Source: an uncultured Planctomycetales bacterium (GTDB lineage: Bacteria > Omnitrophota > Gorgyraeia > Gygaellales > Profunditerraquicolaceae). From it: a stretch of DNA of 64,000 nt. Where the stretch lies: NCBI GenBank assembly GCA_964603585.1, contig CAZRVK010000009.1, positions 7,319 to 71,318 of the forward strand, in the 5' to 3' direction. The notes under the pieces were generated by a model. The model was not told the DNA's origin. It saw only the letters and a program-made list of their open reading frames with translations, and made no database searches. Positions 11,239 to 43,979 of this stretch are shown piece after piece (the stretch's first letter is position 1; every line of letters begins with the position of its first letter). The position numbers were made by a program, and so were the translations under genes.

Positions 11239-11312
11239 CCAACTTTTTAGAAAAAATAAAGCAGATTAAACCAAGTTCTGTGAAAAATTATTATAAAGGT
11301 ATTGACAAGAAC

Positions 11313-11340
11313 CCCGGTTATGTTATAATTTTTTTGTTAT
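11313..11340 (+). promoter_or_regulatory. sigma70-type promoter of cspA (TTGACA, 16 nt spacer, TGtTATAAT)
   Basis: Consensus -35 TTGACA at 11313-11318 and extended -10 TGTTATAAT ending at 11340. This leaves a 5' UTR of about 105 nt, typical of cold-shock genes. Confidence 0.7.
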
Positions 11341-11451: not shown

Positions 11452-11652
11452 ATGGCTAAAGGCAAAGTAAAGTGGTTCAGCAATCAAAAAGGTTACGGTT
11501 TTATCACTGGCGAGGATGCTAAAGATGTATTTGTACATTACAGCGCAATTACCGGTGAGGGTTACAAAACTTTAAATGAGGGTGACGAAGTCGAATTTGA
11601 AGTCACTCAAGGGCCAAAAGGCGAACAGGCAACTAACGTCAAAAAAGCCTAA
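11452..11652 (+). CDS. cspA: cold-shock protein (CspA family)
   Basis: [18 protein letters not shown] carries the RNP1 and RNP2 motifs. The true start is Met16 of the tracked ORF, preceded by a GGAG-type Shine-Dalgarno. Confidence 0.9.
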
Positions 11653-11672: not shown

Positions 11673-11709
11673 CCCCGTATGGATTTAACTCCATGCGGGG
11701 TTTTTATTT
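11673..11709. terminator. bidirectional rho-independent terminator
   Basis: CCCCGTATGG..CCATGCGGGG stem followed by TTTTTATTT, between convergent cspA and paralog 1. Confidence 0.65.
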
Positions 11710-13348
11710 ATGGCGCGCTTCTTACGAAACGGGCGCCAAACCAGCTTGTACGCCCCGTTCCCGGATTGTCAGCCCGGTAAGAAATAAACCCGGTCGAGGT
11801 AGGGCTTTCCCAGCTGTTCCCGCGGAAACCGCGATTACCCGGAGGATCATAATAAACGCTATTATAAGCTCCCCCCGCATACCCGGGCCAATCAGTATTA
11901 TTGGCATAACCAGAAGTGGTTAAACTGCCGTCACCATGCGTGCCTTCAAAAGCCCGGTCAGTAGAATTACCGACCGTAACTGAACGTTCATAGACATTGC
12001 CGGCTAACTCCATATTACCATAATAACCTGCACCGGATTCCGCCCGGGTAGAATTTGCAGTAGCAAGAATTCCCGACCGCACAGGTCCACTGCCACCGTC
12101 GCCGCCGTCAAACCCTGTGAAACCTTCATTAGACATTATAACATTTGCCCCGGGATTAGCTATCGTCTCCGTACCATCCTCACTGCCAGAAATAGAAGTT
12201 GCTATAACAAGACTGCCCGTGCCATCTACTGTATCGCCTCGAAAAGCAGCATCTGGGCCGCGGGAGGCCTTTTCAAACTCCAGTTCGGTCATCGGCCGCA
12301 ATCCCGCCCAATCCGCATAAGCACAAAGATCCATCCAAGAGAGATAATTGCATGCCCTGTTCGGCCGGGTGGTCGCAGCATCCCCGCTTGACCAGGAAAT
12401 AGTATTACGATTAACTACGCTATCGCTGTTTTTACCGTTTACCCCGGTAAGATCACGGGCAGACTTTTGAGTAGCGGTTAAGCTGTTAAAGAAATCCACC
12501 CACTGGCCTTCAGTCACTTCATATTTCATCAAGTAAAATGCATTATACCCGGTAGGGAAATTAGCATTGTCAATACTTCCATCATTATTGGTATCCAAAC
12601 CAGACCATACCCCTGAACCGCCAATACCAATCCCTGTATTGATAAGCTGTGAATCATCTCCGAATCCGGAAGCAACACGTATATTCCTGGTTAAAGAAGT
12701 GCCGATCACTACTCCGGAATTACTTGTCCCGGAATGAAAAGCTCCTTGACTCTCACCATCCCCATCGCCATCACCAAGATAAAAACTGCCAGCCGGGATA
12801 TACACCATCTCTATTGCATAAACTTTTACGCGCGCGGAAGTGTCCGCAGATAAACCATTCTGGCCCCAGTTCCATTTTAACCCCACAAAAGCCGCGCTCA
12901 CTTGTCCGGCTCCCGCGCTATTTCTCTGAATAAACGCCCCCATCCCACGGATATTTCCGCCAACCGTACTCGTGCCAACCTTTACTTCATAAGGAGGATC
13001 ACAAGTATGATCCGAACCGGTGGTGGACAGATATGCATGATGCCAGGTACTGCCGGAGTCAGTGGAATATTTCGCGAATACCCAGACTGCATCATAATTG
13101 ACCTCATTGCGCCAGGAATTATTCCAGGAAAGTTCAAAACCTATCCTGGCAGTTTGATTAACACTATCTTGATCACTTATAAAAATCGCACCACTATCGA
13201 TGGTGAGGTTATTGGCAAAACTTTGCCCAAAAGGAAGGGAACAAAAAATCAAAGCTATCCCCATCAGAATAATATACAATTTATAAATTTGTTTTAACGC
13301 ACTCATTAAACTCATAAGTTTTGTACTTATACTCCCTTCCACGATCAT
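11708..13348 (-). CDS. secreted FGE-sulfatase (SUMF1/DUF323) C-type-lectin-fold domain protein, paralog 1
   Basis: Sec signal peptide (cleavage about SFA/NN) and an N-terminal beta-rich domain. The FGE-type domain runs from IEMVYIPAGSFYLGDG through RPMTELEFEKASRG and GNMELAGNVYE to RGNSW and GARFVRSAP at the C-terminus. It is very rich in Ser, Thr, Gly and Asn. Confidence 0.7.
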   Translation of the reverse strand: MIVEGSISTKLMSLMSALKQIYKLYIILMGIALIFCSLPFGQSFANNLTIDSGAIFISDQDSVNQTARIGFELSWNNSWRNEVNYDAVWVFAKYSTDSGSTWHHAYLSTTGSDHTCDPPYEVKVGTSTVGGNIRGMGAFIQRNSAGAGQVSAAFVGLKWNWGQNGLSADTSARVKVYAIEMVYIPAGSFYLGDGDGDGESQGAFHSGTSNSGVVIGTSLTRNIRVASGFGDDSQLINTGIGIGGSGVWSGLDTNNDGSIDNANFPTGYNAFYLMKYEVTEGQWVDFFNSLTATQKSARDLTGVNGKNSDSVVNRNTISWSSGDAATTRPNRACNYLSWMDLCAYADWAGLRPMTELEFEKASRGPDAAFRGDTVDGTGSLVIATSISGSEDGTETIANPGANVIMSNEGFTGFDGGDGGSGPVRSGILATANSTRAESGAGYYGNMELAGNVYERSVTVGNSTDRAFEGTHGDGSLTTSGYANNTDWPGYAGGAYNSVYYDPPGNRGFRGNSWESPTSTGFISYRADNPGTGRTSWFGARFVRSAP

Positions 13349-13417
13349 TTAGCAAAACCATACGGAGGAATTATCAGATCAAGAAATATGTACGGGTTAA
13401 ATCATGCAAAATCTTTA

Positions 13418-15097
13418 TTACGGATAACTTCTAACAAACCGGCCGCCCAACCACTGCGGCGAAGGAGTCACAGCTTTTCCATCCTCCGAACCAGGATAAA
13501 AACGAGTAGAAAGGCCGGTCAAATAAAAAACTCCTCCGGTCGATGTCCATAAACTCGTTTCTCCACTACCCCCGCGATCGCCTCCTGAAAGATCACTGGC
13601 AACGCCACTGCCGCTTACATACCCCGGCCAATCAGTATTCGTACCATATCCATTGGTAGTTAAACTGCCGTCTCCATGCGTGCCTTCAAAAGCCCGGTTA
13701 GTGGTGTTACCCACACTGACTGACCGCTCGTATACATTGCCGGCTAACTCCATATTCCCGTAATAACCTGCTCCGGCAACTGCCCGGGTAGAATTAGAAA
13801 CAGAAAATATTCCTGCACGCAATGGCCCAGTGCCGCCATCTCCGCCGCTGTAAACCGCAGGAGAAAAACCTCCCGCCAGCTGATAAACAGCAAACACCGC
13901 ATCACCTCCGCCGCTGACGGTTTCCGTGCCGTTCTCACTGCCGGAAATCGTCTGTGCAGAAGTTACAGCCGTCGTGCCAAAGACCGTCTGATTAGCCAAG
14001 GTACTGCTGGCTCCCCGGGAAGCTTTTTCAAATTCCAGTTCGGTCATCGGCCGCAACCCTGCCCAGTCCGCATAAGCGCAAAGGTCTGCCCAGGAAAGAT
14101 AATTGCATACCCTGTCTGAACGGGTAGTAGTGGCCGAACCCGATCCCGGCCAGGCAATGGTATTACGATAAACCGTGCTCTGGCTATTCTTGCCGTTAAT
14201 ACCGGTTATATCCCTGGCAGATTTCTGTGCGTCGGTTAAACTATTAAAGAAATCCACCCATTGCCCTTCTGTAATTTCATACTTCATCATATAAAACGGA
14301 TTATACCCCGTAGGAAAACTGGCATTATCGATCGTTCCGTCATTATTGGTGTCTAGGCCTGACCAAACGCCTGATCCACCGATACCAATACCTGAATCAG
14401 TTAATTGGGAATCATCACCTGGTGCCGTCCGCTCAACACTTATATTCCTGGTTAAAGATGTCCCGATTAACGCAGGGGTTGTAGAGCTTAAAGTACAAAA
14501 AGCCCCCGGGCTTGCCCCATCGCCAATATAGAATCCCCCTGCCGGGACATAAACCATTTCTATAGCATAAACTTTTACGCGCGCGGAAGTAGTGGCGGAT
14601 AAACCGTTCTGGCCCCAGTTCCATTTTAACCCCACGAAAGCCGCGCTCACTTGTCCGGCTCCCGCGCTATTTCTCTGAATAAACGCCCCAATCCCGCGGG
14701 TATTTCCGCCAACCGTACTCGTGCCAACCTTTACTTCATAAGGAGGATCACAAGTATGATCCGAACCGGTGGTGGACAGATATGCATGATGCCAGGTACT
14801 GCCGGAGTCAGTGGAATATTTCGCGAATACCCAGACTGCATCATAATTGACCTCATTGCGCCAGGAATTATTCCAGGAAAGTTCAAAACCTATCCTGGCA
14901 GTTTGATTAACACTATCTTGATCATCTATAATAACCGCGCCACTATCGATGGTGAGGTTATTGGCAAAACTTTGCCCCAAAGGAAGAAAGCAAAAAATCA
15001 AAGCTGTTCCACCCAGGATAAAACGCAACTTATAAATTTGTTTTAGCGCATTCATTAAACTCATAAGTTTTGTACTTATACTCCCTTCCACAATCAT
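13418..15097 (-). CDS. secreted FGE-sulfatase-domain protein, paralog 2
   Basis: The 5' part (about 400 nt) and the upstream intergenic region are nearly identical to paralog 1. The C-terminal 60-70 aa diverges, including indels. Confidence 0.7.
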   Translation of the reverse strand: MIVEGSISTKLMSLMNALKQIYKLRFILGGTALIFCFLPLGQSFANNLTIDSGAVIIDDQDSVNQTARIGFELSWNNSWRNEVNYDAVWVFAKYSTDSGSTWHHAYLSTTGSDHTCDPPYEVKVGTSTVGGNTRGIGAFIQRNSAGAGQVSAAFVGLKWNWGQNGLSATTSARVKVYAIEMVYVPAGGFYIGDGASPGAFCTLSSTTPALIGTSLTRNISVERTAPGDDSQLTDSGIGIGGSGVWSGLDTNNDGTIDNASFPTGYNPFYMMKYEITEGQWVDFFNSLTDAQKSARDITGINGKNSQSTVYRNTIAWPGSGSATTTRSDRVCNYLSWADLCAYADWAGLRPMTELEFEKASRGASSTLANQTVFGTTAVTSAQTISGSENGTETVSGGGDAVFAVYQLAGGFSPAVYSGGDGGTGPLRAGIFSVSNSTRAVAGAGYYGNMELAGNVYERSVSVGNTTNRAFEGTHGDGSLTTNGYGTNTDWPGYVSGSGVASDLSGGDRGGSGETSLWTSTGGVFYLTGLSTRFYPGSEDGKAVTPSPQWLGGRFVRSYP

Positions 15098-15166
15098 TTA
15101 GCAAAACCATACGGAGGAATTATCGAGTCAGGAAATATGTGCAGGTTTAATTATGGAAAATCTTTA

Positions 15167-16807
15167 TTAAGGATAACTTCTGACAAAACGGGCGCCATAC
15201 CAGGCTTCTTCCGGAGCATAATCACCCTCATCCGCAGAATTAATATATTTACGTGTAGAAAGCCCGCTCTGTAATCTATAATCCGGGGTTGAAGTATACA
15301 GAAGATTACTCCCACTTCCACCCCGTAATCCAGTAGTAATACTGCCCGTAACGCCACTGCCGCTTACATACCCCGGCCAATCAGTATTCGTACCATATCC
15401 ATTGGTAGTTAAACTGCCGTCTCCATGCGTGCCCTGAAAAGCCCGGTTAGTGGTGTTACCGACACTGACTGACCGCTCGTATACATTGCCGGCTAACTCC
15501 ATATTCCCGTAGTAGCCTGCTCCGGCAACTGCCCGGGTAGAATTAGAAACAGAAAATATCCCAGCGCGCAATGGCCCGATGCCTCCATCGCCGCCATAAA
15601 AAGTTACGGAATAACACCTTTCTCCGCTAATACAAGTAGCAAAAAGGGCGTTGCCTACACCACTGATAGTTTCAGTACCGTTCTCACTGCCGGAAATCGT
15701 CTGTGCAACCGTAATATCACTGCCGGAAACTGTTTGGCCAGCCGAATAAGTACTTGGACCGCGGGAAGCTTTTTCAAATTCCAGTTCGGTCATCGGCCGC
15801 AATCCTGCCCAGTCCGCATAGGCACAAAGATCCGCCCAGGAAAGATAATTGCATACCCTATCAGGACGGGTAGTAGTGGCATTGCCCGATCCCGGCCAGG
15901 CAATGGTATTACGATAAACCGTACTCTGGCTGTTCTTGCCGTTAATACCGGTTATATCCCTGACAGATTTCTGTGCGTCGGTTAAACTATTAAAAAAATC
16001 CACCCATTGCCCTTCGGTCACTTCATACTTCATCATATAGAATGGATTATACCCAGTGGGAAAACTGGCATTATCGATCGTTCCGTCATTATTGGTGTCC
16101 AAACCTGACCAAACGCCGGAACCGCCCACACCAATACCTGAAGTATCTAATTGAGAATCATCCCCTGGAGCTGCCTGTTCAACAATTATATCCCTGGTTA
16201 AAGATGTCCCGATTAACGCAGGGGTGGTAGAACCTAATTTACAAAAAGCCCCCGGGCTTGATCCATCTCCAATATAAAAACTTGCGGCCGGGATATACAC
16301 CATTTCAATAGCATAAACTTTCACGCGCGCGGAAGTAGTAGCGGATAAACCGTTCTGGCCCCAATTCCACCTTAAACCGACAAAAACACTGTTGATTGTT
16401 CCCGTTCCGGCAGCATTTCTTTGAACAAATACCCCCATCCCGCGGGTATTTCCACCAACGGTGCTTGTGCCAACCTTAACTTCGAGAGGATAATCACAAT
16501 CATGATCCGAGTTGGTAGTAGAAAGATAAGCATGATGCCAGGTGTTCCCTGAATCAGTAGAGTATTTTACGAAAACCCAGGCGGCATCATAATTGATCTC
16601 ATTACGCCAGGAATTGTCCCAGGTAATTTCAAAACCCACTCTGGCAGTTTGATTGGCTGTATCTTGTTCATCTATACTAACGTAAGAACTCTCTATTATA
16701 AGATTATTGGCAAAAGCCTGATTAGAAAGAACAACCCAGAAAATAAAGATTGCTCCAAACAAGACACACCGGTGCCTGGATCGCCATTTAGCTGTAGTCA
16801 TAAGCAA
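15167..16807 (-). CDS. secreted FGE-sulfatase-domain protein, paralog 3
   Basis: Same architecture with a different signal peptide. It has its own promoter. Confidence 0.7.
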   Translation of the reverse strand: MLMTTAKWRSRHRCVLFGAIFIFWVVLSNQAFANNLIIESSYVSIDEQDTANQTARVGFEITWDNSWRNEINYDAAWVFVKYSTDSGNTWHHAYLSTTNSDHDCDYPLEVKVGTSTVGGNTRGMGVFVQRNAAGTGTINSVFVGLRWNWGQNGLSATTSARVKVYAIEMVYIPAASFYIGDGSSPGAFCKLGSTTPALIGTSLTRDIIVEQAAPGDDSQLDTSGIGVGGSGVWSGLDTNNDGTIDNASFPTGYNPFYMMKYEVTEGQWVDFFNSLTDAQKSVRDITGINGKNSQSTVYRNTIAWPGSGNATTTRPDRVCNYLSWADLCAYADWAGLRPMTELEFEKASRGPSTYSAGQTVSGSDITVAQTISGSENGTETISGVGNALFATCISGERCYSVTFYGGDGGIGPLRAGIFSVSNSTRAVAGAGYYGNMELAGNVYERSVSVGNTTNRAFQGTHGDGSLTTNGYGTNTDWPGYVSGSGVTGSITTGLRGGSGSNLLYTSTPDYRLQSGLSTRKYINSADEGDYAPEEAWYGARFVRSYP

Positions 16808-16835
16808 GCATATTGAAATGCGTGTATTATCTATA

Positions 16836-16863
16836 AGTATAAACTTACCTCTTAATTTGTCAA
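16836..16863 (-). promoter_or_regulatory. sigma70-type promoter for paralog 3 (TTGACA, 16 nt spacer, TATACT)
   Basis: On the minus strand: ATTGACAAATTAAGAGGTAAGTTTATACTTATAG. Confidence 0.5.
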
Positions 16864-16880
16864 TATTAATAGATAAAATC

Positions 16881-18605
16881 TTACTGCGAAAGATCCTCTA
16901 AGATCTGGGGCAAATCTCCCTGCTTAATCAATTTCTTAAAGTATAGTTTTTTGGCGATATTGGCTCTTTTTTTTACGATTCTTTCTGAACGGTCCCAAAC
17001 AGTAAACTGCCTGGGATTAGGCAGTATCACTGCCAAACGGATCGCCTCGGGCATGGTTAAATCCGATGCCGGCTTATTAAAATAAACCTGCGCAGCAGAT
17101 CCTGCCCCATAGATCCCATTCCCCCACTCCACAATATTCAGATAAAGCTCGAGAATTCGGTTTTTTGATAAGGATCTTTCCAACTTATACGCAATAATCA
17201 TCCCCCGTATTTTCCGAATGATACTTTTTGACGGGTTAAGAAATAGGTTTTTTGCCAACTGTTCGGTGATCGTTGAAGCACCTGAAGTAATTTTTTTCTC
17301 TGAAACCACCCTCCTTAACGCCCAATCAAAACTCTCCCAATCAAACCCTCTGTGATCAAAAAAATTACGATCCTCGGCAACAACCACCGCATCAACCAGG
17401 TTCTGGGATATCTGGCTTAAAGGTGTATATTGCCACTGGATAAGATATGGCTTATCCAGATTGGCTGCTTCATTATTGCGGATACGCATCAAAGCAGTCT
17501 CTGAAGGATTCCTCTCTTTCAACCAGGAAATATCCGGAGTGAAAAACCAGAACAATAATGACATAAAAACAATAACAGCAAATAAACAAGCTATCCCCAT
17601 TAACACTTTTCTTCGTAAGATTTTTAATGAATACTTTTCATCTGCACCGCTTGCGCTTGCGTTAACCCCCATAATAAAACCGCACAACAGGCAAAAAAAC
17701 ATATAAAAATTGCTCTTATAAAGTAATGCCCCCCGGTTCAACTCAATTAAAATCACGGCAAGAATCAATATACCGGCAAGTAAAGCTTGTTTTTTATTAT
17801 CCTGCGTGATCCGGATAAACCCTGAAATACCGCGTTTAAATAACGCAGATACCAGGACAATAAATCCTGATAGCCCGATCAAACCGGTTTCTATCAATAA
17901 GCTAAGGTACATATTATTCATTGCAGATTTAGACACCCATCCGCGTTTAAAAGGATAATATTGATCGAAAACATACCCGTACCTGTCCAGCCCCACCCCT
18001 ACAAAAGGATAATCTTTGAATATCTCCAAAGACATCTCCATCTGCAGGGGTCGGTACGGATAAAAAATATCCCGGTTAAACACTCCCGGGAAGAAATGAC
18101 TTATTGCTATTGCCATCAATAATACGACGGAGGAAATAATGAAGCTTTTATACCGCTTATTCGCCAAAAGATAAACCAGCACCGCAGTGATCAGTATCAA
18201 AACCATCTGCTTGCCGATAAAAGCGGCTAACCCTCCGGAGAGCAAGAAAACCTTAATGGCAAGACGTCTATCTTCATCTGAAAAGGACAAAGATTTACCG
18301 ATGTAAAAAAGAAAGAACATGTTCGTAGATAGGTCAAGGTATATGCCTAAGGCCAGGTCTTTTCTTGACACCGGAAAAAGGCAGGCGCAAAGGCCTATTA
18401 TGAATAACCACACCGGCCAATCAGACAACGTAACCAAGCCCGGCGCTTCTTTTTTGGCAGGCAATAAATAACAAAAAAAAGCAAGTAAGAATAACTTTAC
18501 CAAGAGCACATATTCTTTTTGCACTTGTAAAGGAACAAAGAAAATCAAAATAAAAAGGGAACTGATAAAAAAAAGGTTTTTAGGTATATTTATCTTTATC
18601 GGCAT
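16881..18605 (-). CDS. polytopic membrane domain (O-antigen-ligase/Wzy-like, unverified) fused to a GT51 peptidoglycan transglycosylase (MtgA-like) domain
   Basis: About 10 TM helices in the first 340 aa. The C-terminal domain carries GT51 motifs: EDRNFFDHRGFD, GASTITEQLAKN, RKIRGMIIAYKLE, and a GxG motif. Confidence 0.65.
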   Translation of the reverse strand: MPIKINIPKNLFFISSLFILIFFVPLQVQKEYVLLVKLFLLAFFCYLLPAKKEAPGLVTLSDWPVWLFIIGLCACLFPVSRKDLALGIYLDLSTNMFFLFYIGKSLSFSDEDRRLAIKVFLLSGGLAAFIGKQMVLILITAVLVYLLANKRYKSFIISSVVLLMAIAISHFFPGVFNRDIFYPYRPLQMEMSLEIFKDYPFVGVGLDRYGYVFDQYYPFKRGWVSKSAMNNMYLSLLIETGLIGLSGFIVLVSALFKRGISGFIRITQDNKKQALLAGILILAVILIELNRGALLYKSNFYMFFCLLCGFIMGVNASASGADEKYSLKILRRKVLMGIACLFAVIVFMSLLFWFFTPDISWLKERNPSETALMRIRNNEAANLDKPYLIQWQYTPLSQISQNLVDAVVVAEDRNFFDHRGFDWESFDWALRRVVSEKKITSGASTITEQLAKNLFLNPSKSIIRKIRGMIIAYKLERSLSKNRILELYLNIVEWGNGIYGAGSAAQVYFNKPASDLTMPEAIRLAVILPNPRQFTVWDRSERIVKKRANIAKKLYFKKLIKQGDLPQILEDLSQ

Positions 18606-20329
18606 TGTTTTATACTAAGCTCCAGCAACTTTATCCCCAATGTACGCTCATCGCCATTGCCGGGTTTTTTTATGATAGGCGCCTCAAAAGTGATATTATT
18701 GATCTGGTTGAACCTAATCATCCCTGCGTCAAATACCAGGGATTGCCTTTTTGAGCGATTTCCAACTGTCAAGTTGCCAATCAATCGATTATTCAGAAAA
18801 ACACTGACAACCTGGTTTACCAAGGATTCAGCGTGAATAACCAGGGCATACTCCCTGCAATCATCTTCTTTATCTTTAAGCCTCAATAAAAGCACGGATC
18901 TTTTTGCCAGGCTCCAGCGGTATCTGGCATTCGGCCATGACCAGCCCTCGACAAATATCGCCTGGCTGTAACCATCAAGCCCTATCCGTTCATTCATTTT
19001 GTATTCCCGCATTGTTTTCTTTAACTGCGGATAATAACTCTGGTAATTACCGCCCAACCTCGTGCCGCGTAAAAACTGGATATCCTGCAAATTCCAGGCC
19101 CTCTCCTGGTTATAGTTAATATCATTTGGCTCCCAGTTCCATTTCCATACCTCCCAATCAGTCGCCCCGCGGTAATGCACAAAGAAACTGAATGCCAAAA
19201 ACAGCCAAAAAATTAGTCCCGCCAACATCCGCTTTTTATTTTTCCGGCTGAATATTAAAGGGATAACCGGGATAATGAAATAAATAAAAAAAGGAATTAT
19301 ATCCGAAATATAACGCGAGCCAAAAGATGCGCCGGCACACCAATAAGGGATAAGGGAAGCCGCCAGCCAATACAGAAGCATCGTTATCAGCACAAAATAA
19401 TCCAAACGTCCAAACTTAGCGCTTTTTATTTTCAGATAAATCCCCAGAATAGAAAATAAGAGTATGGGGGAAAAAATAAATATCCCCCGGGAAGGGCTGA
19501 CCAAATGGCCAAGCAGCCTCACAAAAAAACCCGCATCGACCCCGGTTTTTCTATAAAGATAATACTTCGGCAGGATCGCTCCATATATATTCAAGTTATG
19601 GATAAAAAACAAGCCGATAATTACCGTCAGCCAAAAGAAATAATACAACGCGTATTTCCGGTAAGAGAACAAGATAAATATCGAGAAAATACCGATGACG
19701 ATAATGTTCGTTGGCCTGACTAAATAGGAAAAGGCCAGGGTGATCCCCGCAAATTGCGCTAAGTACGGTTTTTTGCGCGCTAACACAAATAGGTACAAAG
19801 TTAAAGCCAAAAACAGCATTGACGGCCCGTGCTGCCATAAGGCCCGCGTGCCGATCGACCAGGCAGAGGTACAGAAACTAAAAATAAAAGTAACCAGCAA
19901 TGCCTGGATCTTATTGATAAATTGGCTCGCCAAAAGGTAAATTAAAGCCGCGCATAAAGCAATAATGCATGATGCAATCAGGCGCTCTATCTGTTCATAA
20001 TATTCGGTAAGGTCAAGATCCCAGAAACGATTGAAGATATAAACAAATGGCACAGCAACCAGAGATACCCCAAGAGGGAATATCGTATAGAAATGTCCCC
20101 GGGAGTTTATAATAGTCCAGCCGCCGTGGGTTCGAGAAAGGATTGTGGAGTAATCGATGTATTCATCCAGGTCGGTATTGCCTTCTTTAAGGAGGCTAGT
20201 TGCGGTATGTATTGTCCAGCTGGAATCCCAGGCAGTTGTAATAGGTAATCTTGCATTAATCAATGTTACGCATATGCTGATTGCCAGGGCGATAACAAGA
20301 TTACTGGTAACAAGCCTCTTAATTGTCAT
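18596..20329 (-). CDS. GT-C fold membrane glycosyltransferase (ArnT/PMT-like, family uncertain)
   Basis: About 11 TM helices plus a C-terminal extracytoplasmic domain. The ORF track begins at TTG 20368, but an ATG at 20329 (MTIKRLVTS...) sits 6 nt after a TGGTATAAT element. This suggests a leaderless start. Confidence 0.55.
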   Translation of the reverse strand: MTIKRLVTSNLVIALAISICVTLINARLPITTAWDSSWTIHTATSLLKEGNTDLDEYIDYSTILSRTHGGWTIINSRGHFYTIFPLGVSLVAVPFVYIFNRFWDLDLTEYYEQIERLIASCIIALCAALIYLLASQFINKIQALLVTFIFSFCTSAWSIGTRALWQHGPSMLFLALTLYLFVLARKKPYLAQFAGITLAFSYLVRPTNIIVIGIFSIFILFSYRKYALYYFFWLTVIIGLFFIHNLNIYGAILPKYYLYRKTGVDAGFFVRLLGHLVSPSRGIFIFSPILLFSILGIYLKIKSAKFGRLDYFVLITMLLYWLAASLIPYWCAGASFGSRYISDIIPFFIYFIIPVIPLIFSRKNKKRMLAGLIFWLFLAFSFFVHYRGATDWEVWKWNWEPNDINYNQERAWNLQDIQFLRGTRLGGNYQSYYPQLKKTMREYKMNERIGLDGYSQAIFVEGWSWPNARYRWSLAKRSVLLLRLKDKEDDCREYALVIHAESLVNQVVSVFLNNRLIGNLTVGNRSKRQSLVFDAGMIRFNQINNITFEAPIIKKPGNGDERTLGIKLLELSIKQCR

Positions 20330-20335
20330 TTTTAG

Positions 20336-20364
20336 ATTATACCACCCTGGCTTAACCTTGATAA
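20336..20364 (-). promoter_or_regulatory. promoter with TTATCA, 17 nt spacer and extended -10 TGGTATAAT; likely leaderless mRNA
   Basis: On the minus strand TTATCAAGGTTAAGCCAGGGTGGTATAATCTAAAAATG, so the ATG lies at about +1. Confidence 0.5.
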
Positions 20365-20594
20365 GCAATTTATAGCAATAAGGGTTTAAACATCTCTAAT
20401 ACCGCTTCAAGCATAAAAAAACTGAACGGTTAAGTCCAGGCGGGGAAAATACTACCCTAAAAGTGGTTAATGGCAGTTCAACTCCCAAGGCCTTTTTTAA
20501 ATATCCGGCTGTAACAAAAAACCAACAGGCTCAAAATAAATACCCAAGAGATAATCATGAACATCCCGCCGCTAAATGTCATCTGGCCCCCCGC

Positions 20595-25515: not shown

Positions 25516-25730
25516 TAAAATACCACCTCACATGACCAGGGGGCCCAAGGATTGTAAAAACAATGGGCCGGCACCTGAGATGACTCAGATGGCGGCCCGA
25601 CCATCTATTAATCCTCCAAGGATATTTTACGCATCCCCAGACCACTTAGATTAAATTTCTTCCTGTAATATACCACAACCCAAGCAAACTTCAACAAAAA
25701 CTTACAAACCGCAGATACCTAATAAAGTAA

Positions 25731-25795
25731 TAAAGGGGACGTTTCTATTTTTCTAAATACTATCGAAAAAACGAAAAATAGAAACGTCCCCTTTA
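25731..25795 (-). terminator. 22-bp perfect palindrome hairpin (21-nt loop)
   Basis: TAAAGGGGACGTTTCTATTTTT at 25731-25752 is perfectly complementary to 25774-25795. It lies directly 3' of the small ORF. Confidence 0.5.
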
Positions 25796-25797
25796 TT

Positions 25798-26004
25798 TCA
25801 AGAAGCAACTATTGTAGAACAAACATCGCAAGGGATTGATCCGCAAGGGGAGAATTCCGAGTCTGGACCGCTGGTAAACTCCACACCATCAGGCATTTTG
25901 CAAGAAATAAGAACCACTTCTTCCCTGCTTGCTTTTATTAGCCTTATCAACGATGGCTTTACCCAAATCTTTTTGATTTTACACTCCATGCTTTCATTAG
26001 ACAT
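25798..26004 (-). CDS. small Cys-rich protein (68 aa), leaderless
   Basis: MSNESMECKIKKIW...SPCGSIPCDVCSTIVAS begins at an ATG 7 nt after a perfect -10. It ends at the palindrome. Confidence 0.35.
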   Translation of the reverse strand: MSNESMECKIKKIWVKPSLIRLIKASREEVVLISCKMPDGVEFTSGPDSEFSPCGSIPCDVCSTIVAS

Positions 26005-26010
26005 GAAAAA

Positions 26011-26039
26011 ATTATACTTCACAAGTTTTATCCTGTCAA
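26011..26039 (-). promoter_or_regulatory. perfect consensus sigma70 promoter (TTGACA, 17 nt spacer, TATAAT)
   Basis: On the minus strand ATTGACAGGATAAAACTTGTGAAGTATAATTTTTTCATG. Confidence 0.6.
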
Positions 26040-26149
26040 TAACCCGATAAGGAGGTAATAGAAAAATGCCTGTCCCAAAAGTGACTGTCACCTTTGACAT
26101 GCCTAAATAAAACAAAAAGAGAGGGTTACAATAACCCCCTCTTTTTAAA

Positions 26150-26224
26150 TGGTGCCGAGGAAGAGAATCGAACTCCCCACGCCGGCCTTTTCAGGGCCGC
26201 GCTCTACCACTGAGCTACCTCGGC
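26150..26224 (-). tRNA. tRNA-Phe (anticodon GAA), CCA encoded
   Basis: The reverse complement GCCGAGGTAGCTCAGTGGTAGAGCGCGGCCCTGAAAAGGCCGGCGTGGGGAGTTCGATTCTCTTCCTCGGCACCA has anticodon loop CTGAAAA. Confidence 0.8.
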
Positions 26225-31405: not shown

Positions 31406-32626
31406 TTACTCCAGAGTACCGTTCTTACAAACCAGTGCAAAACGCCTGGCGCTTTCTCTAATCTTGCGCTGATAAGTGTTATAATCCACATCCACAAGCC
31501 CAAACCGAGGGCCAAACCCTTTATCCCATTCAAAATTATCCATTAAAGACCAGTAGATATACCCGGAAACCTTTACCCCTGCTTGCATCGCACGATGCAG
31601 GCTAAAAAGATGCGCGCGAATAAACTCCCAGCGCAAATTATCATCTGCCGTGCAAATCCCGTTTTCCGTAATAATTACCGGCAGATTATACCGTTTTACT
31701 TTTAAAAGCGTATCATACAACCCTTCGGGATAAATATCCCAATTTAACGAATTCTTTTTTAAGGGATGGTGATTTTTCTGGCACTCGTCTAAAAGCAAGT
31801 TCATAAACCTGGGTTTTTGCACCTCCACCAAGCTGCGCGTATAATAATTGATCCCGATAAAATCAATCGCTTTATGCCGGTAAACCTCATCCAGGAACAA
31901 TGTATTATAAAGCTTATCCCTCAAATAGACAGCAAATTTATCCCGCAGGCGGTCAGTGCAGGGAACAAATGCCTGCATGTTCTTGGCAAAACTAATATAA
32001 GGAGCCGGCAAATTAGATTTTCTGTAAATATCCTTTATCGCATAATACGCCTTAACATGGGCGTTTTTAAAAGTCGCTCCTATCTTCCATGCCTTACAAA
32101 GAGATCTCTCCTGGGGAGGCCAATCCCCAAGGATATAGCCATGATAAACATACACCATCGGCTCATTAATTGTGATCCAGTAACGAGCCTGCCCGCTTAA
32201 AGCCTGCACAATATGCTTTACATACCGCAAGAAAGACTCACAGGCATCACGCCTAAGCCAACCGCCAGAATGGGCAAGCCAAAGGGGGATGGTAAAATGA
32301 TTCAAGGTGACCAAAGGCTCAATTCCCCGGGACTTTAACTGACCAATGACATTTACATAATGCTGTGTTTCTTCAGCAGAAAATTCCCCCTCTTTTGGTT
32401 CAACACGGCTCCATTCAATAGAAAGCCGATGCGCATTATGCCCCAATTGCCCCAACAAATCAAAATCCTGCGGATATAATTCATAATGCCGGCAGGCAGA
32501 CCCGGAGGTATGGGCCAACCCAACCCGCTTCTCCCATTCCCACCAATCAGCGTTAGAATTATTCCCTTCGACTTGATAACTGGAAGTAGCTGACCCCCAA
32601 AGAAAATTTCCAGGAAATTCAATCAT
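31406..32626 (-). CDS. bglA: GH1 beta-glucosidase
   Basis: LWGSATSSYQVEG at the N-terminus, ITENG nucleophile and NEP acid/base motifs. Confidence 0.85.
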   Translation of the reverse strand: MIEFPGNFLWGSATSSYQVEGNNSNADWWEWEKRVGLAHTSGSACRHYELYPQDFDLLGQLGHNAHRLSIEWSRVEPKEGEFSAEETQHYVNVIGQLKSRGIEPLVTLNHFTIPLWLAHSGGWLRRDACESFLRYVKHIVQALSGQARYWITINEPMVYVYHGYILGDWPPQERSLCKAWKIGATFKNAHVKAYYAIKDIYRKSNLPAPYISFAKNMQAFVPCTDRLRDKFAVYLRDKLYNTLFLDEVYRHKAIDFIGINYYTRSLVEVQKPRFMNLLLDECQKNHHPLKKNSLNWDIYPEGLYDTLLKVKRYNLPVIITENGICTADDNLRWEFIRAHLFSLHRAMQAGVKVSGYIYWSLMDNFEWDKGFGPRFGLVDVDYNTYQRKIRESARRFALVCKNGTLE

Positions 32627-32631
32627 GATTG

Positions 32632-33030
32632 TTAAGATTGTGTTTGGATGAAAAGATTTTCTTTCTTGAAACCTTTGTATATCCGGTATGATAAGAAATA
32701 AAAATACCCCCGCACCGGATTAGTTAGAATATCTACAATCAAATGCTGGGTAAGCCCCAGCATAAAAGCAATCCATATTACTGATAAATGCATGGACAAT
32801 ACAGCCATCCAAAGGACCAGGATAAGCTCGATAGAATGAAAGAATATAAAAACAAACCGGAATTGTCGTAAAACAAACCATTGATAAACCTTAGGGAAGT
32901 TAAAAGTAAACCCGCGCTGCAGATAATAATCAAGCATATGGTCTGCGTCTATTAAAGTCCCGGCAGCAAGAGCCGCATAAAAAGCTCCCCACGACTTAGA
33001 AATAAAATAGATTATAGAGCTTATACCCAA
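32632..33030 (-). CDS. DUF457/YdjM-like membrane-bound metal-dependent hydrolase (putative)
   Basis: 132 aa with 4 TM helices and His/Asp motifs DADHMLDY and HLIVDIL. It is the first gene after the riboswitch. Confidence 0.5.
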   Translation of the reverse strand: MGISSIIYFISKSWGAFYAALAAGTLIDADHMLDYYLQRGFTFNFPKVYQWFVLRQFRFVFIFFHSIELILVLWMAVLSMHLSVIWIAFMLGLTQHLIVDILTNPVRGYFYFLSYRIYKGFKKENLFIQTQS

Positions 33031-33160: not shown

Positions 33161-33341
33161 GCCGATAAAGGCAATGGCCACACACCCACGCCATCTCCTT
33201 CGGCAACCCAGCTGCCATAACAGCTAACCCGCTAAAACCGCTGGCCAGAAAACCCACAACCAGCACCAGCAAAAACGAGCATCACTGCCTTAGGCCTGTA
33301 GCTTTGCGCCCCCCGGTTTCCCGAGGTTTGCCTTTATCGGC
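33161..33341 (-). promoter_or_regulatory. c-di-GMP-I (GEMM) riboswitch aptamer with extended P3
   Basis: Minus-strand RNA: AGCCGAUAAAGGCAAACC UCGG-GAAA-CCGG GGGGCGCAAAGCUACAGGCCUAAGG ... GCUGGGUUGCCGAAGG ... UUGCCUUUAUCGGC. GGCAAACC, the GNRA tetraloop hairpin, GGGRCGCAAAGC, GGCCUAA and GGGUUxCCGA appear in the order and spacing of the V. cholerae Vc2 aptamer. P1 is closed by a 14-bp helix (33161-33174 with 33328-33341). Confidence 0.65.
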
Positions 33342-33385
33342 TAAGTTAAGTATATACCAAGATTACACTGATTTCAAGTAAAGCC

Positions 33386-42920: not shown

Positions 42921-43979
42921 CTAAGCCAGATCACTAAATAAACTATCTCCCCGCGAATAATCAAGCTCCCTGCCTATAGAGTTTACTTTCTTCTTCAAGC
43001 AGCCAAGACAGGTACGCGACTCTTCACTGATACATCTTTTGCCGGGATAAATCTCATAGAGGGCTTTGTATTTCAAAGGCGTAAAGTTCGGCATCAAAAC
43101 ATTGGCGCCGATCTTTAAACCATCAACGCGGTAATCCTCCTCCTGACTGCCTAATGCAGTAGTTGCCGGAAGATGCGGATATTTTGTCACAATGCGTGTT
43201 AACGCCAAGGTTTTTAAGGTAAGGCGCGTATCTCCCCTGGATTGCGAAGACAATTTAGTCCTCTGATGGGGGATAAACGGCCCGATACCGATCATATCAA
43301 AGTTATTCTGCTTAAAGAAAATGATGTCTCCGGCAATATGCTTCAGACTTTGGCCCTTTAAACCAATGATATTGCCTGAACCAACCTGATATCCCAATTC
43401 TCTCAACTGGCGTAAACATCTTAGCCGGTTTGGGAAACTCATCCCCGGATGAAGCGATTCATATAACTTCCGGTCCGAAGTCTCTATTTTTAATAAATAC
43501 CGGTCAGCTCCGGCCCGGCGCCATACTTTATATTCTCTAAGCGTTCTTTCCCCCAGGCAAAGCGTTATCGCAATACTAAACTTGGCCTTTATTTCTTGAA
43601 TAATCCCGGCAAACCAGAGATAATCCAGAGCATCATCCTCCCCTGACTGCAGAACTACAGTTTTTATGCCGGCTGCGGACAATCGCGCGATACTTCCCAG
43701 GATCTCTTTGCTGGTTAAACGGTACCTTTGTAAATTGCGGTTATTCCGATTAAGGCCGCAATATAAACAGGCATTCCGGCAAAAGCTTGAGAACTCGACG
43801 ATACCTCTTAACAAAACGCCCGGACCAGCAAATTCAGCTCTAACCTCATCGGCAAAACAAAAAAGCTTGCACAATGCAGCATCGTTCTTTAAGGAAAGCA
43901 GATACTCGAGATCTTTACTATCGGGGATATCTGCGTCATAGATCCTTTTTAAAATCAGGTCCGTTTTAGACAAACTCAT
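42921..43979 (-). CDS. hydE: [FeFe] hydrogenase maturase HydE (radical SAM)
   Basis: CRNACLYC radical-SAM motif, 352 aa, biotin-synthase-like. Confidence 0.8.
   Translation of the reverse strand: MSLSKTDLILKRIYDADIPDSKDLEYLLSLKNDAALCKLFCFADEVRAEFAGPGVLLRGIVEFSSFCRNACLYCGLNRNNRNLQRYRLTSKEILGSIARLSAAGIKTVVLQSGEDDALDYLWFAGIIQEIKAKFSIAITLCLGERTLREYKVWRRAGADRYLLKIETSDRKLYESLHPGMSFPNRLRCLRQLRELGYQVGSGNIIGLKGQSLKHIAGDIIFFKQNNFDMIGIGPFIPHQRTKLSSQSRGDTRLTLKTLALTRIVTKYPHLPATTALGSQEEDYRVDGLKIGANVLMPNFTPLKYKALYEIYPGKRCISEESRTCLGCLKKKVNSIGRELDYSRGDSLFSDLA

What the first reader, a model, noticed from the sequence alone, without database searches (positions are those of the whole stretch)
25731..26039. 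Self-contained mini transcription unit: perfect sigma70 consensus promoter, leaderless 68-aa Cys-rich ORF, 22-bp perfect palindrome
On the minus strand TTGACA, a 17-nt spacer and TATAAT are followed 7 nt later by ATG. The ORF is MSNESMECKIKKIW...SPCGSIPCDVCSTIVAS, with four Cys in a possible zinc-ribbon-like spacing. It ends 2 nt before a 22-bp perfect inverted repeat. A perfect consensus promoter is rare and implies very strong expression. The product could be a small zinc-binding regulator or peptide, or the unit could encode an sRNA instead.
Basis: seen in the sequence. Interest (0 to 1): 0.55.

Follow-up and report, generated by a model that had tools for sequence, protein, structure and literature searches.

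The report
Stand-alone RiPP precursor peptide gene
The mini transcription unit is real and encodes a stand-alone precursor peptide of a large, uncurated family of ribosomal natural products that is normally encoded beside three radical-SAM enzymes and a PqqD-type peptide-binding protein; it shows no sign of being a zinc-finger regulator or a small RNA.

Summary
On the minus strand, TTGACA-17-TATAAT (26039..26011) places the 7th base after the -10 on the A of an ATG (26004). A 68-aa ORF follows (to 25798). Directly after it comes a perfect 25-bp inverted repeat with a 19-nt loop (25797..25729).

The ORF is coding: a syntenic relative at 91% DNA identity gives dN/dS 0.20 (p 3e-5). An exhaustive profile search places it in a family of about 60-aa peptides with the consensus KKxWxKPxLIVLVRxxPEExVLxxCK..GP..C....C..C.....S. 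More than 1,600 members were found, none with a Pfam or NCBIfam model.

In relatives the gene usually sits inside a conserved cluster: radical-SAM/ScmC fusion, radical-SAM/SPASM, peptide(s), PqqD (RRE), S26-like peptidase, radical-SAM/SPASM, ABC exporter. Some Omnitrophota fuse PqqD to the peptide.

The window copy is an orphan, with no maturase gene in 64 kb. A contig that is probably from the same genome carries three more paralogues.

The hairpin arms and a stretch upstream of the promoter are copies of repeats dispersed through the lineage. AlphaFold gives no compact fold, so a zinc ribbon has no support.

Best reading: a strongly expressed, leaderless, self-terminated precursor gene, matured in trans. 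It is a new variant of a known kind and of moderate interest.

The parts
26150..26224 (-). tRNA-Phe(GAA), the upstream neighbour. It sets the 5' boundary of the unit.
   Evidence: ARAGORN; Rfam tRNA, 64.3 bits.
26113..26147 (-). Intrinsic-terminator-like hairpin plus T-run after tRNA-Phe. It insulates the unit from upstream transcription.
   Evidence: Terminator scan, 16 pairs, 3-nt loop, TTTTATTT tail; inverted repeat I3. Conserved in L001.
26066..26091 (-). Copy of a dispersed REP-like element, GTGACAGTCAC-TTTTGGGACAGGCAT, about 27 nt upstream of the -35.
   Evidence: The 22-nt core occurs exactly in 13 metagenome stretches in unrelated intergenic contexts, often as a full palindrome. None of those stretches encodes a family peptide.
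26011..26039 (-). Sigma-70-type promoter with perfect consensus, TTGACA-17 nt-TATAAT.
   Evidence: 12/12 match. Only such match in the window, 0.02 expected. Both hexamers, the spacing and the distance to the ATG are conserved in L001.
26004..26004 (-). Predicted transcription start, the A of the ATG (7th base after the -10). This would make the mRNA leaderless.
   Evidence: Geometry read from the sequence. No Shine-Dalgarno before Met1 or Met6. Inferred; no transcript data.
25798..26004 (-). 68-aa precursor peptide gene, stop included. Leader is roughly aa 1-36 (26004..25897) with W14-x-K-P17-x-L19 and E29-x-V-L32-x-x-C35-K36. Core is roughly aa 37-68 (25896..25801) with G46-P47, C54, C59, C62 and C-terminal S68.
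   Evidence: ORF. dN/dS 0.20 against L001. Family profile hits. Invariant columns. The leader/core split is an inference from the conservation pattern.
25729..25797 (-). Terminator-like hairpin: two perfect 25-nt arms and a 19-nt loop, followed by the U-rich tail UUUAUUACUUUAUU. Each arm is a copy of the dispersed motif AATAAAGGGGACGTTTCTATTTT.
   Evidence: Inverted repeat I1. RNA fold -44.9 kcal/mol, z -7.3. The motif recurs after genes in L077, L078, L079 and L001, and as paired variants in L019, L070 and L072.

Best explanation
The unit is a stand-alone ('orphan') gene for a precursor peptide of a ribosomally synthesised and post-translationally modified peptide (RiPP).

Shown:
- The ORF is under purifying selection.
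- It carries every invariant residue of a large peptide family.
- Family members are normally encoded inside a conserved cluster: a radical-SAM enzyme fused to a ScmC-type domain, a second radical-SAM/SPASM enzyme, one to five precursor genes, a discrete PqqD-type RRE, an S26/S24-like peptidase (sometimes fused to a GNAT), a third radical-SAM/SPASM enzyme, an ABC exporter and often an NTP_transf_5 protein.

Inferred mechanism:
1. RNA polymerase with the housekeeping sigma factor starts at the A of the ATG from a perfect consensus promoter, giving an abundant leaderless mRNA.
2. The 25-bp hairpin, built from two copies of a lineage-wide repeat, ends and stabilises the roughly 280-nt transcript.
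3. The N-terminal leader (KKIWVKPSLIRL...EEVVLISCK) is bound by the PqqD-type RRE of a maturase cluster encoded elsewhere in the genome.
4. The radical-SAM/SPASM enzymes modify the Cys-bearing core, most plausibly through Cys-derived cross-links.
5. The peptidase removes the leader and the ABC transporter exports the product.

The function of the product (toxin or signal) is unknown.
For: Coding and conserved:
- A syntenic orthologue on L001 (91% DNA identity) has a peptide 87% identical.
- dN/dS is 0.20 in frame, against 1.52 and 0.72 out of frame. Fisher p = 2.8e-5. This is lower than the neighbouring pssA-like gene, at 0.32.

Family:
- An exhaustive HMMER search of 1.84 billion representatives gave 61 hits at E <= 1e-3, nearly all 55-70 aa and aligned end to end.
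- The alignment shows invariant W, P, E, L, C-K, C and C.
- A family profile finds 1,650 proteins at E <= 1e-3, all 'hypothetical' and without Pfam domains.

Context:
- Clusters in L002-L005 were seen directly.
- In 56 loci from species-representative genomes, 57 peptide genes lie within 6 kb of radical-SAM, PqqD, S26 or ScmC homologues.
- In-frame PqqD-linker-peptide fusions occur in an Omnitrophota MAG.
- Members give weak hits to lasso-peptide leader models.

Orphans are normal in this family:
- Eight other clear orphans were found. Some lie in MAGs that also hold a cluster, for example L017 with L026 and L036, or L055 with L051.

Same organism:
- Logan contigs of run SRR15237810 are 100% identical to the window.
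- A 29-kb contig of that run (L077) has tetranucleotide r = 0.956 with the window, equal to the window against itself.
- It carries three more paralogues and exact copies of the hairpin-arm motif.

The cluster enzyme is very common in Omnitrophota: at least 120 clusters at 67% identity or more.

Expression signals:
- Perfect promoter, conserved in L001.
- The only other perfect promoter in the window drives a cold-shock gene.
- No Shine-Dalgarno here, whereas most family genes have one.
Against: - No maturase, PqqD or related radical-SAM/SPASM gene is in the 64-kb window. I could not reach the rest of the genome, so maturation in trans is inferred, not shown.
- L077 ends at the repeat, before any maturase gene.
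- The window peptide is a divergent member, about 45% identical to its nearest non-orthologous relatives.
- No transcript, proteomic or chemical data exist. The start site, the leaderless state, the leader/core boundary and the kind of modification are all inferences.
- The hairpin has a long 19-nt loop and was not called by the terminator scan.
Confidence: 0.75

Rival explanations
1. A small Cys-rich protein that works unmodified, for example a zinc- or metal-binding or disulfide-stabilised regulator. The orphan copies would have been recruited for a role independent of the radical-SAM pathway.
For: - Four conserved Cys.
- No maturase gene in the window.
- Orphans in other genomes sit beside PAS/sigma-54, LuxR and histidine-kinase regulators.
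- Strong stand-alone expression signals.
Against: - Only one CxxC, so there are no paired knuckles.
- AlphaFold with a 52-sequence alignment gives pLDDT 64 and pTM 0.22, with no compact fold. Confidence peaks in the leader motif.
- No solved-structure relatives.
- The C-terminal half is hypervariable apart from the Cys, GP and terminal Ser. This is typical of RiPP cores, not of a folded domain.
- The full leader motif used by cluster-encoded members is retained.
Confidence: 0.1
2. An evolutionary relic: a precursor gene left behind after loss or relocation of its cluster, still transcribed but without function.
For: - Orphan position between a tRNA gene and an unrelated operon, flanked by dispersed repeats.
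- A paralogue in the related sample carries an in-frame TAG at the invariant Trp codon, so decay does occur in this family.
Against: - The ORF is intact with all invariant residues.
- dN/dS is 0.20, lower than the neighbouring housekeeping gene.
- The promoter hexamers, their spacing and the ATG distance are conserved in L001.
- Further intact paralogues are probably present in the same genome.
Confidence: 0.08
3. The transcript acts mainly as a small RNA, or as a dual-function RNA, and the ORF is incidental.
For: - Short, self-terminated transcript of about 280 nt from a very strong promoter.
- The last 40 nt of the ORF and the first hairpin arm are nearly identical between the window and L001.
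- The whole-transcript fold has z = -4.8, driven by the hairpin.
Against: - The substitution pattern is codon-phased and in frame.
- Amino-acid-level conservation extends across phyla and into archaea, with no nucleotide conservation.
- No Rfam family reaches threshold; only generic long-hairpin matches appear.
Confidence: 0.03

Closest known systems
SynChlorMet (SCM) cassette of NCBIfam/TIGRFAMs (ScmC TIGR04249, ScmD TIGR04248, ScmE TIGR04250, ScmF TIGR04251)
   Same: The clusters that house this peptide family combine several PqqE-like radical-SAM/SPASM proteins, a discrete PqqD homologue and a ScmC-type domain (precomputed PF27840). ScmE, ScmF and ScmD are among the hits, ScmE ranking first for the third radical-SAM enzyme and ScmF second or third for the other two.
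   Different: All scores are far below the equivalog cut-offs: 56-98 bits against 400 for ScmE and ScmF, and 37.7 against 100 for ScmD. Here ScmC is fused to a radical-SAM domain, there are three radical-SAM enzymes, and a peptidase and an exporter are present. No curated model matches the peptide. I found no paper on the cassette.
Sactipeptide and ranthipeptide systems (for example SCIFF, subtilosin/AlbA, SkfA/SkfB, StsB)
   Same: A Cys-containing precursor with an N-terminal leader, radical-SAM/SPASM maturases, RRE-dependent recognition, and a peptidase and ABC exporter in the cluster. StsB, AlbA and PapB models and the SkfB structure are among the weak hits.
   Different: No match to any curated sacti- or ranthipeptide precursor or maturase model at its cut-off. 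The RRE is a separate protein rather than fused to the enzyme. There are three radical-SAM enzymes and a ScmC domain. The chemistry is unknown.
PqqA/PqqD/PqqE (PQQ biosynthesis)
   Same: A small peptide bound by PqqD and modified by a radical-SAM/SPASM enzyme. PqqD and PqqE are among the best sequence and structure matches. That the leader W-x-K-P-x-L resembles the W-K-K-P start of PqqA is my recollection, not tested here.
   Different: The core has no Glu/Tyr pair in the PqqA arrangement, there are no pqqB or pqqC genes, the core is hypervariable, and an exporter is present.
Prochlorosins (ProcA precursors and ProcM), from my own knowledge
   Same: Many diverse precursor genes per genome share a conserved leader and have hypervariable cores. 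Several are encoded far from the single modifying system and are processed in trans. Here there are up to five precursors per locus and multiple loci per MAG.
   Different: Different leader family and different enzymology (class II lanthipeptide synthetase against radical-SAM enzymes). Processing in trans is not demonstrated here.
Lasso peptide precursors
   Same: A few family members give weak hits to lasso-leader models (NF033534 E 0.0012, NF033524 E 0.06). The cluster PqqD also hits lasso PqqD chaperone models. [quoted passage not shown]
   Different: No lasso cyclase or B2 transglutaminase protease in any cluster examined.

Membership tests
Uncurated precursor-peptide family of radical-SAM-ScmC/PqqD (SCM-like) RiPP clusters | Full-length profile similarity to the roughly 60-aa family | tested here: met
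   A two-sequence profile of the window peptide and its orthologue retrieves 61 family proteins at E <= 1e-3 from 1.84 billion. The family HMM scores the window ORF at 79 bits, though the window sequence is part of that HMM.
Uncurated precursor-peptide family of radical-SAM-ScmC/PqqD (SCM-like) RiPP clusters | Invariant residues W, P, E, L, C-K, C, C, plus the nearly invariant third core Cys and C-terminal Ser | tested here: met
   W14, P17, E29, L32, C35, K36, C54, C62, C59 and S68 are all present.
Uncurated precursor-peptide family of radical-SAM-ScmC/PqqD (SCM-like) RiPP clusters | Gene adjacent to radical-SAM/SPASM, PqqD and peptidase genes | tested here: not met
   No homologue of any cluster protein in the 64-kb window. 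This is typical but not universal: 57 adjacent, 8 other clear orphans, 16 undetermined.
Uncurated precursor-peptide family of radical-SAM-ScmC/PqqD (SCM-like) RiPP clusters | Leader bound by the RRE and core modified by the radical-SAM enzymes | not testable with these tools
   Indirect support only: natural PqqD-peptide fusions.
SynChlorMet cassette (TIGR04248-TIGR04251) | Radical-SAM proteins reach the ScmE or ScmF equivalog cut-off (400 bits); PqqD reaches the ScmD cut-off (100 bits) | tested here: not met
   56-98 bits for ScmE and ScmF, and 37.7 bits for ScmD, in clusters of L003, L019, L025, L031 and L040.
SynChlorMet cassette (TIGR04248-TIGR04251) | ScmC domain present in the cluster | tested here: inconclusive
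   Precomputed PF27840 hits on the first radical-SAM protein. My own hmmscan against the local Pfam copy returned only Radical_SAM.
Zinc-ribbon small protein | Two Cys/His knuckles (CxxC ... CxxC) and a confident compact fold | tested here: not met
   Only C59-x2-C62 forms a CxxC (sequence). AlphaFold pLDDT 64, pTM 0.22. No Pfam or NCBIfam hit for the window peptide. Among 52 family members, one gave a single weak hit (E 0.069) to the zinc-ribbon model NF047363.
Sactipeptide / ranthipeptide (SCIFF and relatives) | Match to a curated precursor or maturase model | tested here: not met
   No precursor model hit. StsB, AlbA and PapB models are hit far below their cut-offs.
Sactipeptide / ranthipeptide (SCIFF and relatives) | Cys-to-carbon thioether cross-links in the product | not testable with these tools
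   Needs mass spectrometry or NMR of the product.
Lasso peptide | Asn-synthetase-like cyclase and B2 protease in the cluster | tested here: not met
   Absent from all clusters examined. Only weak leader-model hits.
Leaderless mRNA from a sigma-70 promoter | Consensus -35 and -10 with 17-nt spacing; start codon at the expected +1; no Shine-Dalgarno | tested here: met
   12/12 match. The A of the ATG is the 7th base after the -10. No Shine-Dalgarno.
Leaderless mRNA from a sigma-70 promoter | Mapped 5' end at the AUG | not testable with these tools
   No transcriptome data available.
Intrinsic (Rho-independent) terminator | G+C-containing stem followed directly by a U-tract | tested here: inconclusive
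   25-bp stem with a GGGGACG/CGUCCCC core, then UUUAUUACUUUAUU. The 19-nt loop is atypical, and the scan, which allows loops of 3-8, did not call it.
REP-like dispersed extragenic repeats | The same short sequence in many unrelated intergenic sites of related genomes, singly or as inverted pairs | tested here: met
   Upstream element: 13 metagenome stretches. Hairpin-arm motif: exact copies in L077, L078 and L079, one mismatch in L001, and 19 variant copies in L019, L070 and L072, several of them paired.

The most novel reading that the evidence does not exclude
The peptide belongs to a so far undescribed RiPP class: three radical-SAM enzymes, a ScmC domain and a discrete RRE. Its precursors would form hypervariable libraries on a fixed four-Cys/GP/C-terminal-Ser scaffold. 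The class is extremely common in Omnitrophota and is found in at least ten bacterial phyla and in methanogenic archaea. Orphan copies such as this one, on constitutive leaderless high-output promoters or beside PAS/sigma-54/LuxR regulators in other lineages, would supply secreted cross-linked peptides used as signals or weapons by these uncultivated, partly host-dependent bacteria. The chemistry could be new.
Probability: 0.3. Interest if true: 0.7.

Novelty: new variant of a known kind. Interest (0 to 1): 0.5.

Why it matters
The general kind, a radical-SAM-modified RiPP with an RRE, is well known. This peptide family and its three-enzyme cluster have no curated Pfam or NCBIfam model, no solved structure, and no paper that I could find.

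The family has more than 1,600 members. It spans Omnitrophota, Chloroflexota, Desulfobacterota-type lineages, Planctomycetota, Actinomycetota, Acidobacteriota, Bacillota and methanogens.

Identifying the precursor gives a concrete substrate for heterologous reconstitution of an uncharacterised radical-SAM pathway in uncultivated phyla.

It also shows that automated annotation misses these genes. The window's own peptide is absent from the protein collection, although its neighbours are present. In that collection the close relative's gene starts at an ATG 32 codons upstream of Met1, well upstream of the promoter.

For the window itself, the result replaces 'odd Cys-rich mini-gene' with a testable assignment.

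Tried and rejected
1. Pfam and NCBIfam scans of the peptide gave no hits. A scan of 52 members gave only weak lasso-leader and SSH-motif hits.
2. The first genome-collection scan, with the two-sequence alignment, found nothing; the tool used N-terminal patterns. The 52-sequence alignment was too diverse for the tool. A 15-sequence subset worked.
3. I looked for the window's own NCBI contig, and so the rest of the genome. Look-ups returned only short Logan contigs of SRR15237810 or nothing. The presence of a maturase cluster in this genome therefore stays unverified.
4. I spent the single metagenome scan on the conserved 22-mer upstream of the promoter, hoping for more copies of the unit. It turned out to be a dispersed repeat with no peptide nearby. 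That is informative but gave no further orthologues.
5. A homology search with the L019 radical-SAM-ScmC enzyme, meant to find the copy from the same sample, returned too many near-equidistant Omnitrophota hits to pick one with the look-ups left.
6. The closest subfamily members, P0003 and P0006, lie on contigs under 2 kb and give no cluster context.
7. Integration-island idea (unit next to a tRNA): no repeat of the tRNA 3' end. The arrangement is shared with L001. No relatives on viral contigs.
8. Integron attC or CRISPR idea for the repeated motif: rejected. Single copies are about 23 nt without a partner, spacing is irregular, and the motif occurs in unrelated intergenic sites.
10. Literature searches for SynChlorMet, ScmC-F, the TIGR and PF accessions, and radical-SAM RiPPs in Omnitrophota, Syntrophobacter or Smithella found nothing specific.
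Full report
**1. What is in the sequence**

All features lie on the minus strand.

- tRNA-Phe (26224..26150) is followed by its own terminator-like hairpin (26147..26113).
- The promoter is TTGACA (26039..26034), 17 nt, TATAAT (26016..26011).
- Six bases later comes the ATG at 26004, so its A is the 7th base after the -10. That is where a sigma-70-type promoter normally starts transcription.
- The 12/12 match is the only one with a 17-nt spacer in the window. Shuffles give a mean of 0.02, and 2 of 100 reach one match.
- Immediately after the stop, two perfect 25-nt arms (25797..25773 and 25753..25729) enclose a 19-nt loop. As RNA this folds at -44.9 kcal/mol, z = -7.3, and is followed by UUUAUUACUUUAUU.
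- Downstream, the next operon has its own promoter-like site (25694..25667) and an nhaA-I riboswitch (25644..25587).

Three corrections apply. The peptide has five Cys, not four. The 'palindrome' is a hairpin with a loop, not a contiguous palindrome. It starts directly at the stop codon.

**2. Is the ORF a gene?**

A word-indexed search found one close relative, P0001 (87% identity). It lies on a 1.8-kb JGI contig, L001, which is syntenic: SNF symporter, pssA-like gene, tRNA-Phe, peptide.

- Over 204 nt there are 24 differences, 13 of them at third codon positions.
- dN/dS is 0.20 in frame, against 1.52 and 0.72 in the other two frames.
- Fisher p is 2.8e-5, and the ratio is lower than for the neighbouring pssA-like gene, 0.32.
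- The promoter hexamers, their spacing and the distance to the ATG are unchanged in L001.

The sRNA alternative is unlikely. Rfam gives nothing at gathering thresholds and only generic long-hairpin matches below them.

**3. The family**

An exhaustive HMMER search of 1.84 billion representatives with the two-sequence profile found 61 proteins at E <= 1e-3. Nearly all are 55-70 aa and match end to end.

Their alignment gives the consensus KKxWxKPxLIVLVRxxPEExVLxxCK..GP..C....C..C.....S.

- Invariant: W14, P17, E29, L32, C35, K36, C54, C62.
- Nearly invariant: L19, L22, V31, P47, C59 and the C-terminal Ser.
- The window peptide has all of them. Cys8 is not conserved.

A family profile retrieves 1,650 proteins at E <= 1e-3. 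None has a Pfam domain and all are 'hypothetical'. The window peptide has no Pfam hit, neither it nor 52 members has a real NCBIfam hit, and a few members hit lasso-leader models weakly. There is no solved-structure relative.

AlphaFold on the 52-sequence alignment gives pLDDT 64 and pTM 0.22, with no compact fold. The best confidence falls in residues 11-20, the W-x-K-P-x-L stretch. This argues against a zinc ribbon. It fits a precursor peptide that becomes ordered only when bound.

**4. Genomic context of the family**

Three long contigs show the peptide gene between radical-SAM genes and a PqqD gene.

A scan of one genome per species gave 56 loci. They come from Chloroflexota, Planctomycetota, several 'delta-proteobacterial' lineages, Actinomycetes, Omnitrophota, Acidobacteriota, Aminicenantes, Bacillota, Coprothermobacterota and methanogenic archaea.

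Searching all loci with the cluster proteins of L002 and L003 shows a recurring order:

1. Radical-SAM fused to a ScmC-type domain.
2. Radical-SAM/SPASM.
3. One to five peptide genes.
4. PqqD.
5. S26/S24-like peptidase, sometimes with a GNAT domain.
6. Radical-SAM/SPASM.
7. ABC exporter.
8. Often an NTP_transf_5 protein.

The counts across these loci are:

| Class | Peptide genes |
|---|---|
| Within 6 kb of a cluster gene | 57 |
| Clear orphans (at least 5 kb clear on both sides), excluding the window | 8 |
| Flanks too short to decide | 16 |

Some MAGs hold both a cluster and orphans (L017 with L026 and L036; L055 with L051), and several hold many loci.

In one Omnitrophota MAG the PqqD domain is fused in frame to a family peptide through a Lys/Glu-rich linker. 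This is a Rosetta-stone argument that the PqqD protein and the peptide interact. RRE-Finder states that a PqqD-like protein near enzymes and transporters strongly indicates an RRE-dependent RiPP cluster, and that the leader binds the RRE as a beta-strand (PMC7470986).

The family is therefore a RiPP precursor family. It has no relatives on viral contigs.

**5. Relation to known systems**

The radical-SAM enzymes hit ScmE and ScmF of the SynChlorMet cassette, mycofactocin, PqqE, NirJ/AhbD and StsB-type models. All scores are 56-118 bits, against cut-offs of 265-850. The PqqD hits ScmD at 37.7 bits against 100.

The closest solved enzymes are PqqE and SkfB, at E 1e-7 to 3e-6.

The clusters are therefore SCM-like in architecture but are not members of any curated family. 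I found no paper on the cassette or on this family. Absence from the searchable library is not proof that none exists.

**6. The window copy and its genome**

No cluster protein has a homologue in the 64-kb window. The CxxxCxxC proteins seen at 42921-45357 gave no hit to the cluster enzymes.

Exact look-ups show that the window's neighbours are in the protein collection, on an 84-kb NCBI contig. The peptide itself is not there.

Logan contigs of run SRR15237810 are 100% and 99.97% identical to the window.

The nearest non-orthologous relative, P0002, lies on a 29-kb contig of the same run, L077.

- Its tetranucleotide correlation with the window is 0.956, the same as window pieces against each other.
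- It carries three family peptides in a row. The contig breaks at the repeat before anything further is seen.
- The organism is therefore probably an Omnitrophota bacterium with at least four precursors. The nearest named loci by composition are Omnitrophota.
- The radical-SAM-ScmC enzyme is very common in that phylum, with at least 120 clusters at 67% identity or more.

A maturase cluster in this genome is likely but not shown.

**7. Expression signals**

Most family genes have an ordinary Shine-Dalgarno 4-11 nt before the start. The window and L001 copies have none, before either Met1 or Met6, and instead have the promoter abutting the ATG. The leaderless arrangement is thus specific to this lineage.

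The window's only other perfect consensus promoter (11302+, 16-nt spacer) drives a cspA-like cold-shock gene through a long 5' UTR. This suggests that perfect consensus marks highly expressed genes in this organism. High expression of the peptide is an inference.

**8. The flanking repeats**

The 22-mer upstream of the promoter (26087..26066), with the GTGACAGTCAC palindrome, occurs exactly in 13 metagenome stretches in unrelated intergenic places. It is often part of a full palindrome, and none of those stretches has a family peptide.

The hairpin arm AATAAAGGGGACGTTTCTATTTT shows the following pattern:

- It recurs as single, same-sense copies in L077, L078 and L079, usually within a few tens of bases after the stop codon of a gene. 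Two of the L079 copies and the L001 copy directly follow or overlap the stop.
- The variant GGGGACGGTTCTATTTT is scattered through the Omnitrophota contigs L019, L070 and L072, often as inverted pairs.

Both flanks are therefore REP-like dispersed repeats. Here, a pair of them forms the 3' hairpin.

In L001 only the first arm is present. It is followed by another copy of the upstream element and a diverged promoter-like TTAACA, so that relative may carry a second unit.

**9. Verdict**

The unit is an orphan, probably leaderless and highly expressed precursor gene of an uncurated radical-SAM/RRE RiPP family.

- The family assignment is strong.
- Maturation in trans, the type of modification (Cys-derived cross-links are the obvious guess) and the product's role remain inferences.

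It is a new variant of a known kind. Interest is moderate for the window feature and higher for the family it reveals.

Noticed in passing
window 25587-25644 (-), with genes 25515-20595 (-): An nhaA-I (Na+-sensing) riboswitch, RF03057 at 45.6 bits, precedes an operon of four genes: a sCache-domain/GT20 trehalose-6-phosphate synthase, trehalose phosphatase, DUF5752 and a TreT-type trehalose synthase. This would link sodium sensing to compatible-solute synthesis.
   Followed up: partly
window 33199-33342 (-): A c-di-GMP-I riboswitch (73 bits) lies upstream of a 132-aa gene (33030..32632) and a GH1 glycosidase (32626..31406).
   Followed up: no
window 11302-11330 (+) and 11454-11652 (+): A second perfect sigma-70 consensus promoter (TTGACA-16-TATAAT) drives a cspA-like cold-shock protein gene through a 5' UTR of about 120 nt.
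   Followed up: partly
window 26066-26091 (-); L064-L076: The REP-like element GTGACAGTCAC-TTTTGGGACAGGCAT is found exactly in 13 metagenome stretches (JGI and Hainich groundwater). It is often a full palindrome, carries extra GTGACAGTCAC copies, and several times lies 20-35 nt upstream of a TTGACA promoter-like site.
   Followed up: partly
L077 8756, 9231, 9960; L078 256, 985, 1265; L079 430, 713; L019, L070, L072: The 23-nt hairpin-arm motif is perfectly conserved after or between genes whose peptide products are only about 45% identical. In the window's lineage it clusters around the precursor array. In L072 the variant occurs about 10 times in 14.7 kb without any peptide. Its function (terminator half, RNA or protein binding site, or mobile repeat) is open.
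   Followed up: partly
L053 9500-10168; L058 186-848; probably L059, L062, L063 (cut at contig start): In Omnitrophota MAG CSMAG_2044 the PqqD/RRE domain is fused in frame, through a Lys/Glu-rich repeat linker, to a family precursor peptide. At least five such loci occur in this one MAG.
   Followed up: partly
L020, L021, L022, L026, L027, L036; L034, L035; L048: Orphan precursors in other phyla form a subfamily with a conserved short core (CKN..AAGP..KKKCNRGP.GC). They sit next to hybrid histidine kinase/response regulators, PAS-LuxR or PAS-sigma-54 activators, or between efflux components (OEP, HlyD, ABC). This hints at a signalling role.
   Followed up: partly
L079 about 762-920: The third precursor-like ORF of the array in the related sample has an in-frame TAG exactly at the invariant Trp codon (K-R-*-K-Q-P). 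It is a pseudogene, a sequencing variant or a recoding event.
   Followed up: no
L077 9187-9214 and 9300-9653: Inside the paralogue array, another perfect TTGACA-16-TATAAT promoter precedes a 117-aa protein with a hydrophobic N-terminal stretch and no Pfam hit. The gene is conserved in the related sample, L079.
   Followed up: no
window 11708-20368 (-): Five tandem genes of about 550-590 aa. At least two share almost identical N-termini (MIVEGSISTKLMSLM...) and identical upstream sequence, which points to recent tandem duplication.
   Followed up: no
window 25798-26115 (-); L001 1392-1694: Gene callers mis-start or miss this gene. The relative's gene is called from an ATG 32 codons upstream of Met1, which lies upstream of the promoter in the tRNA-peptide spacer. 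The window's own peptide is absent from the protein collection, although its neighbours are present.
   Followed up: yes
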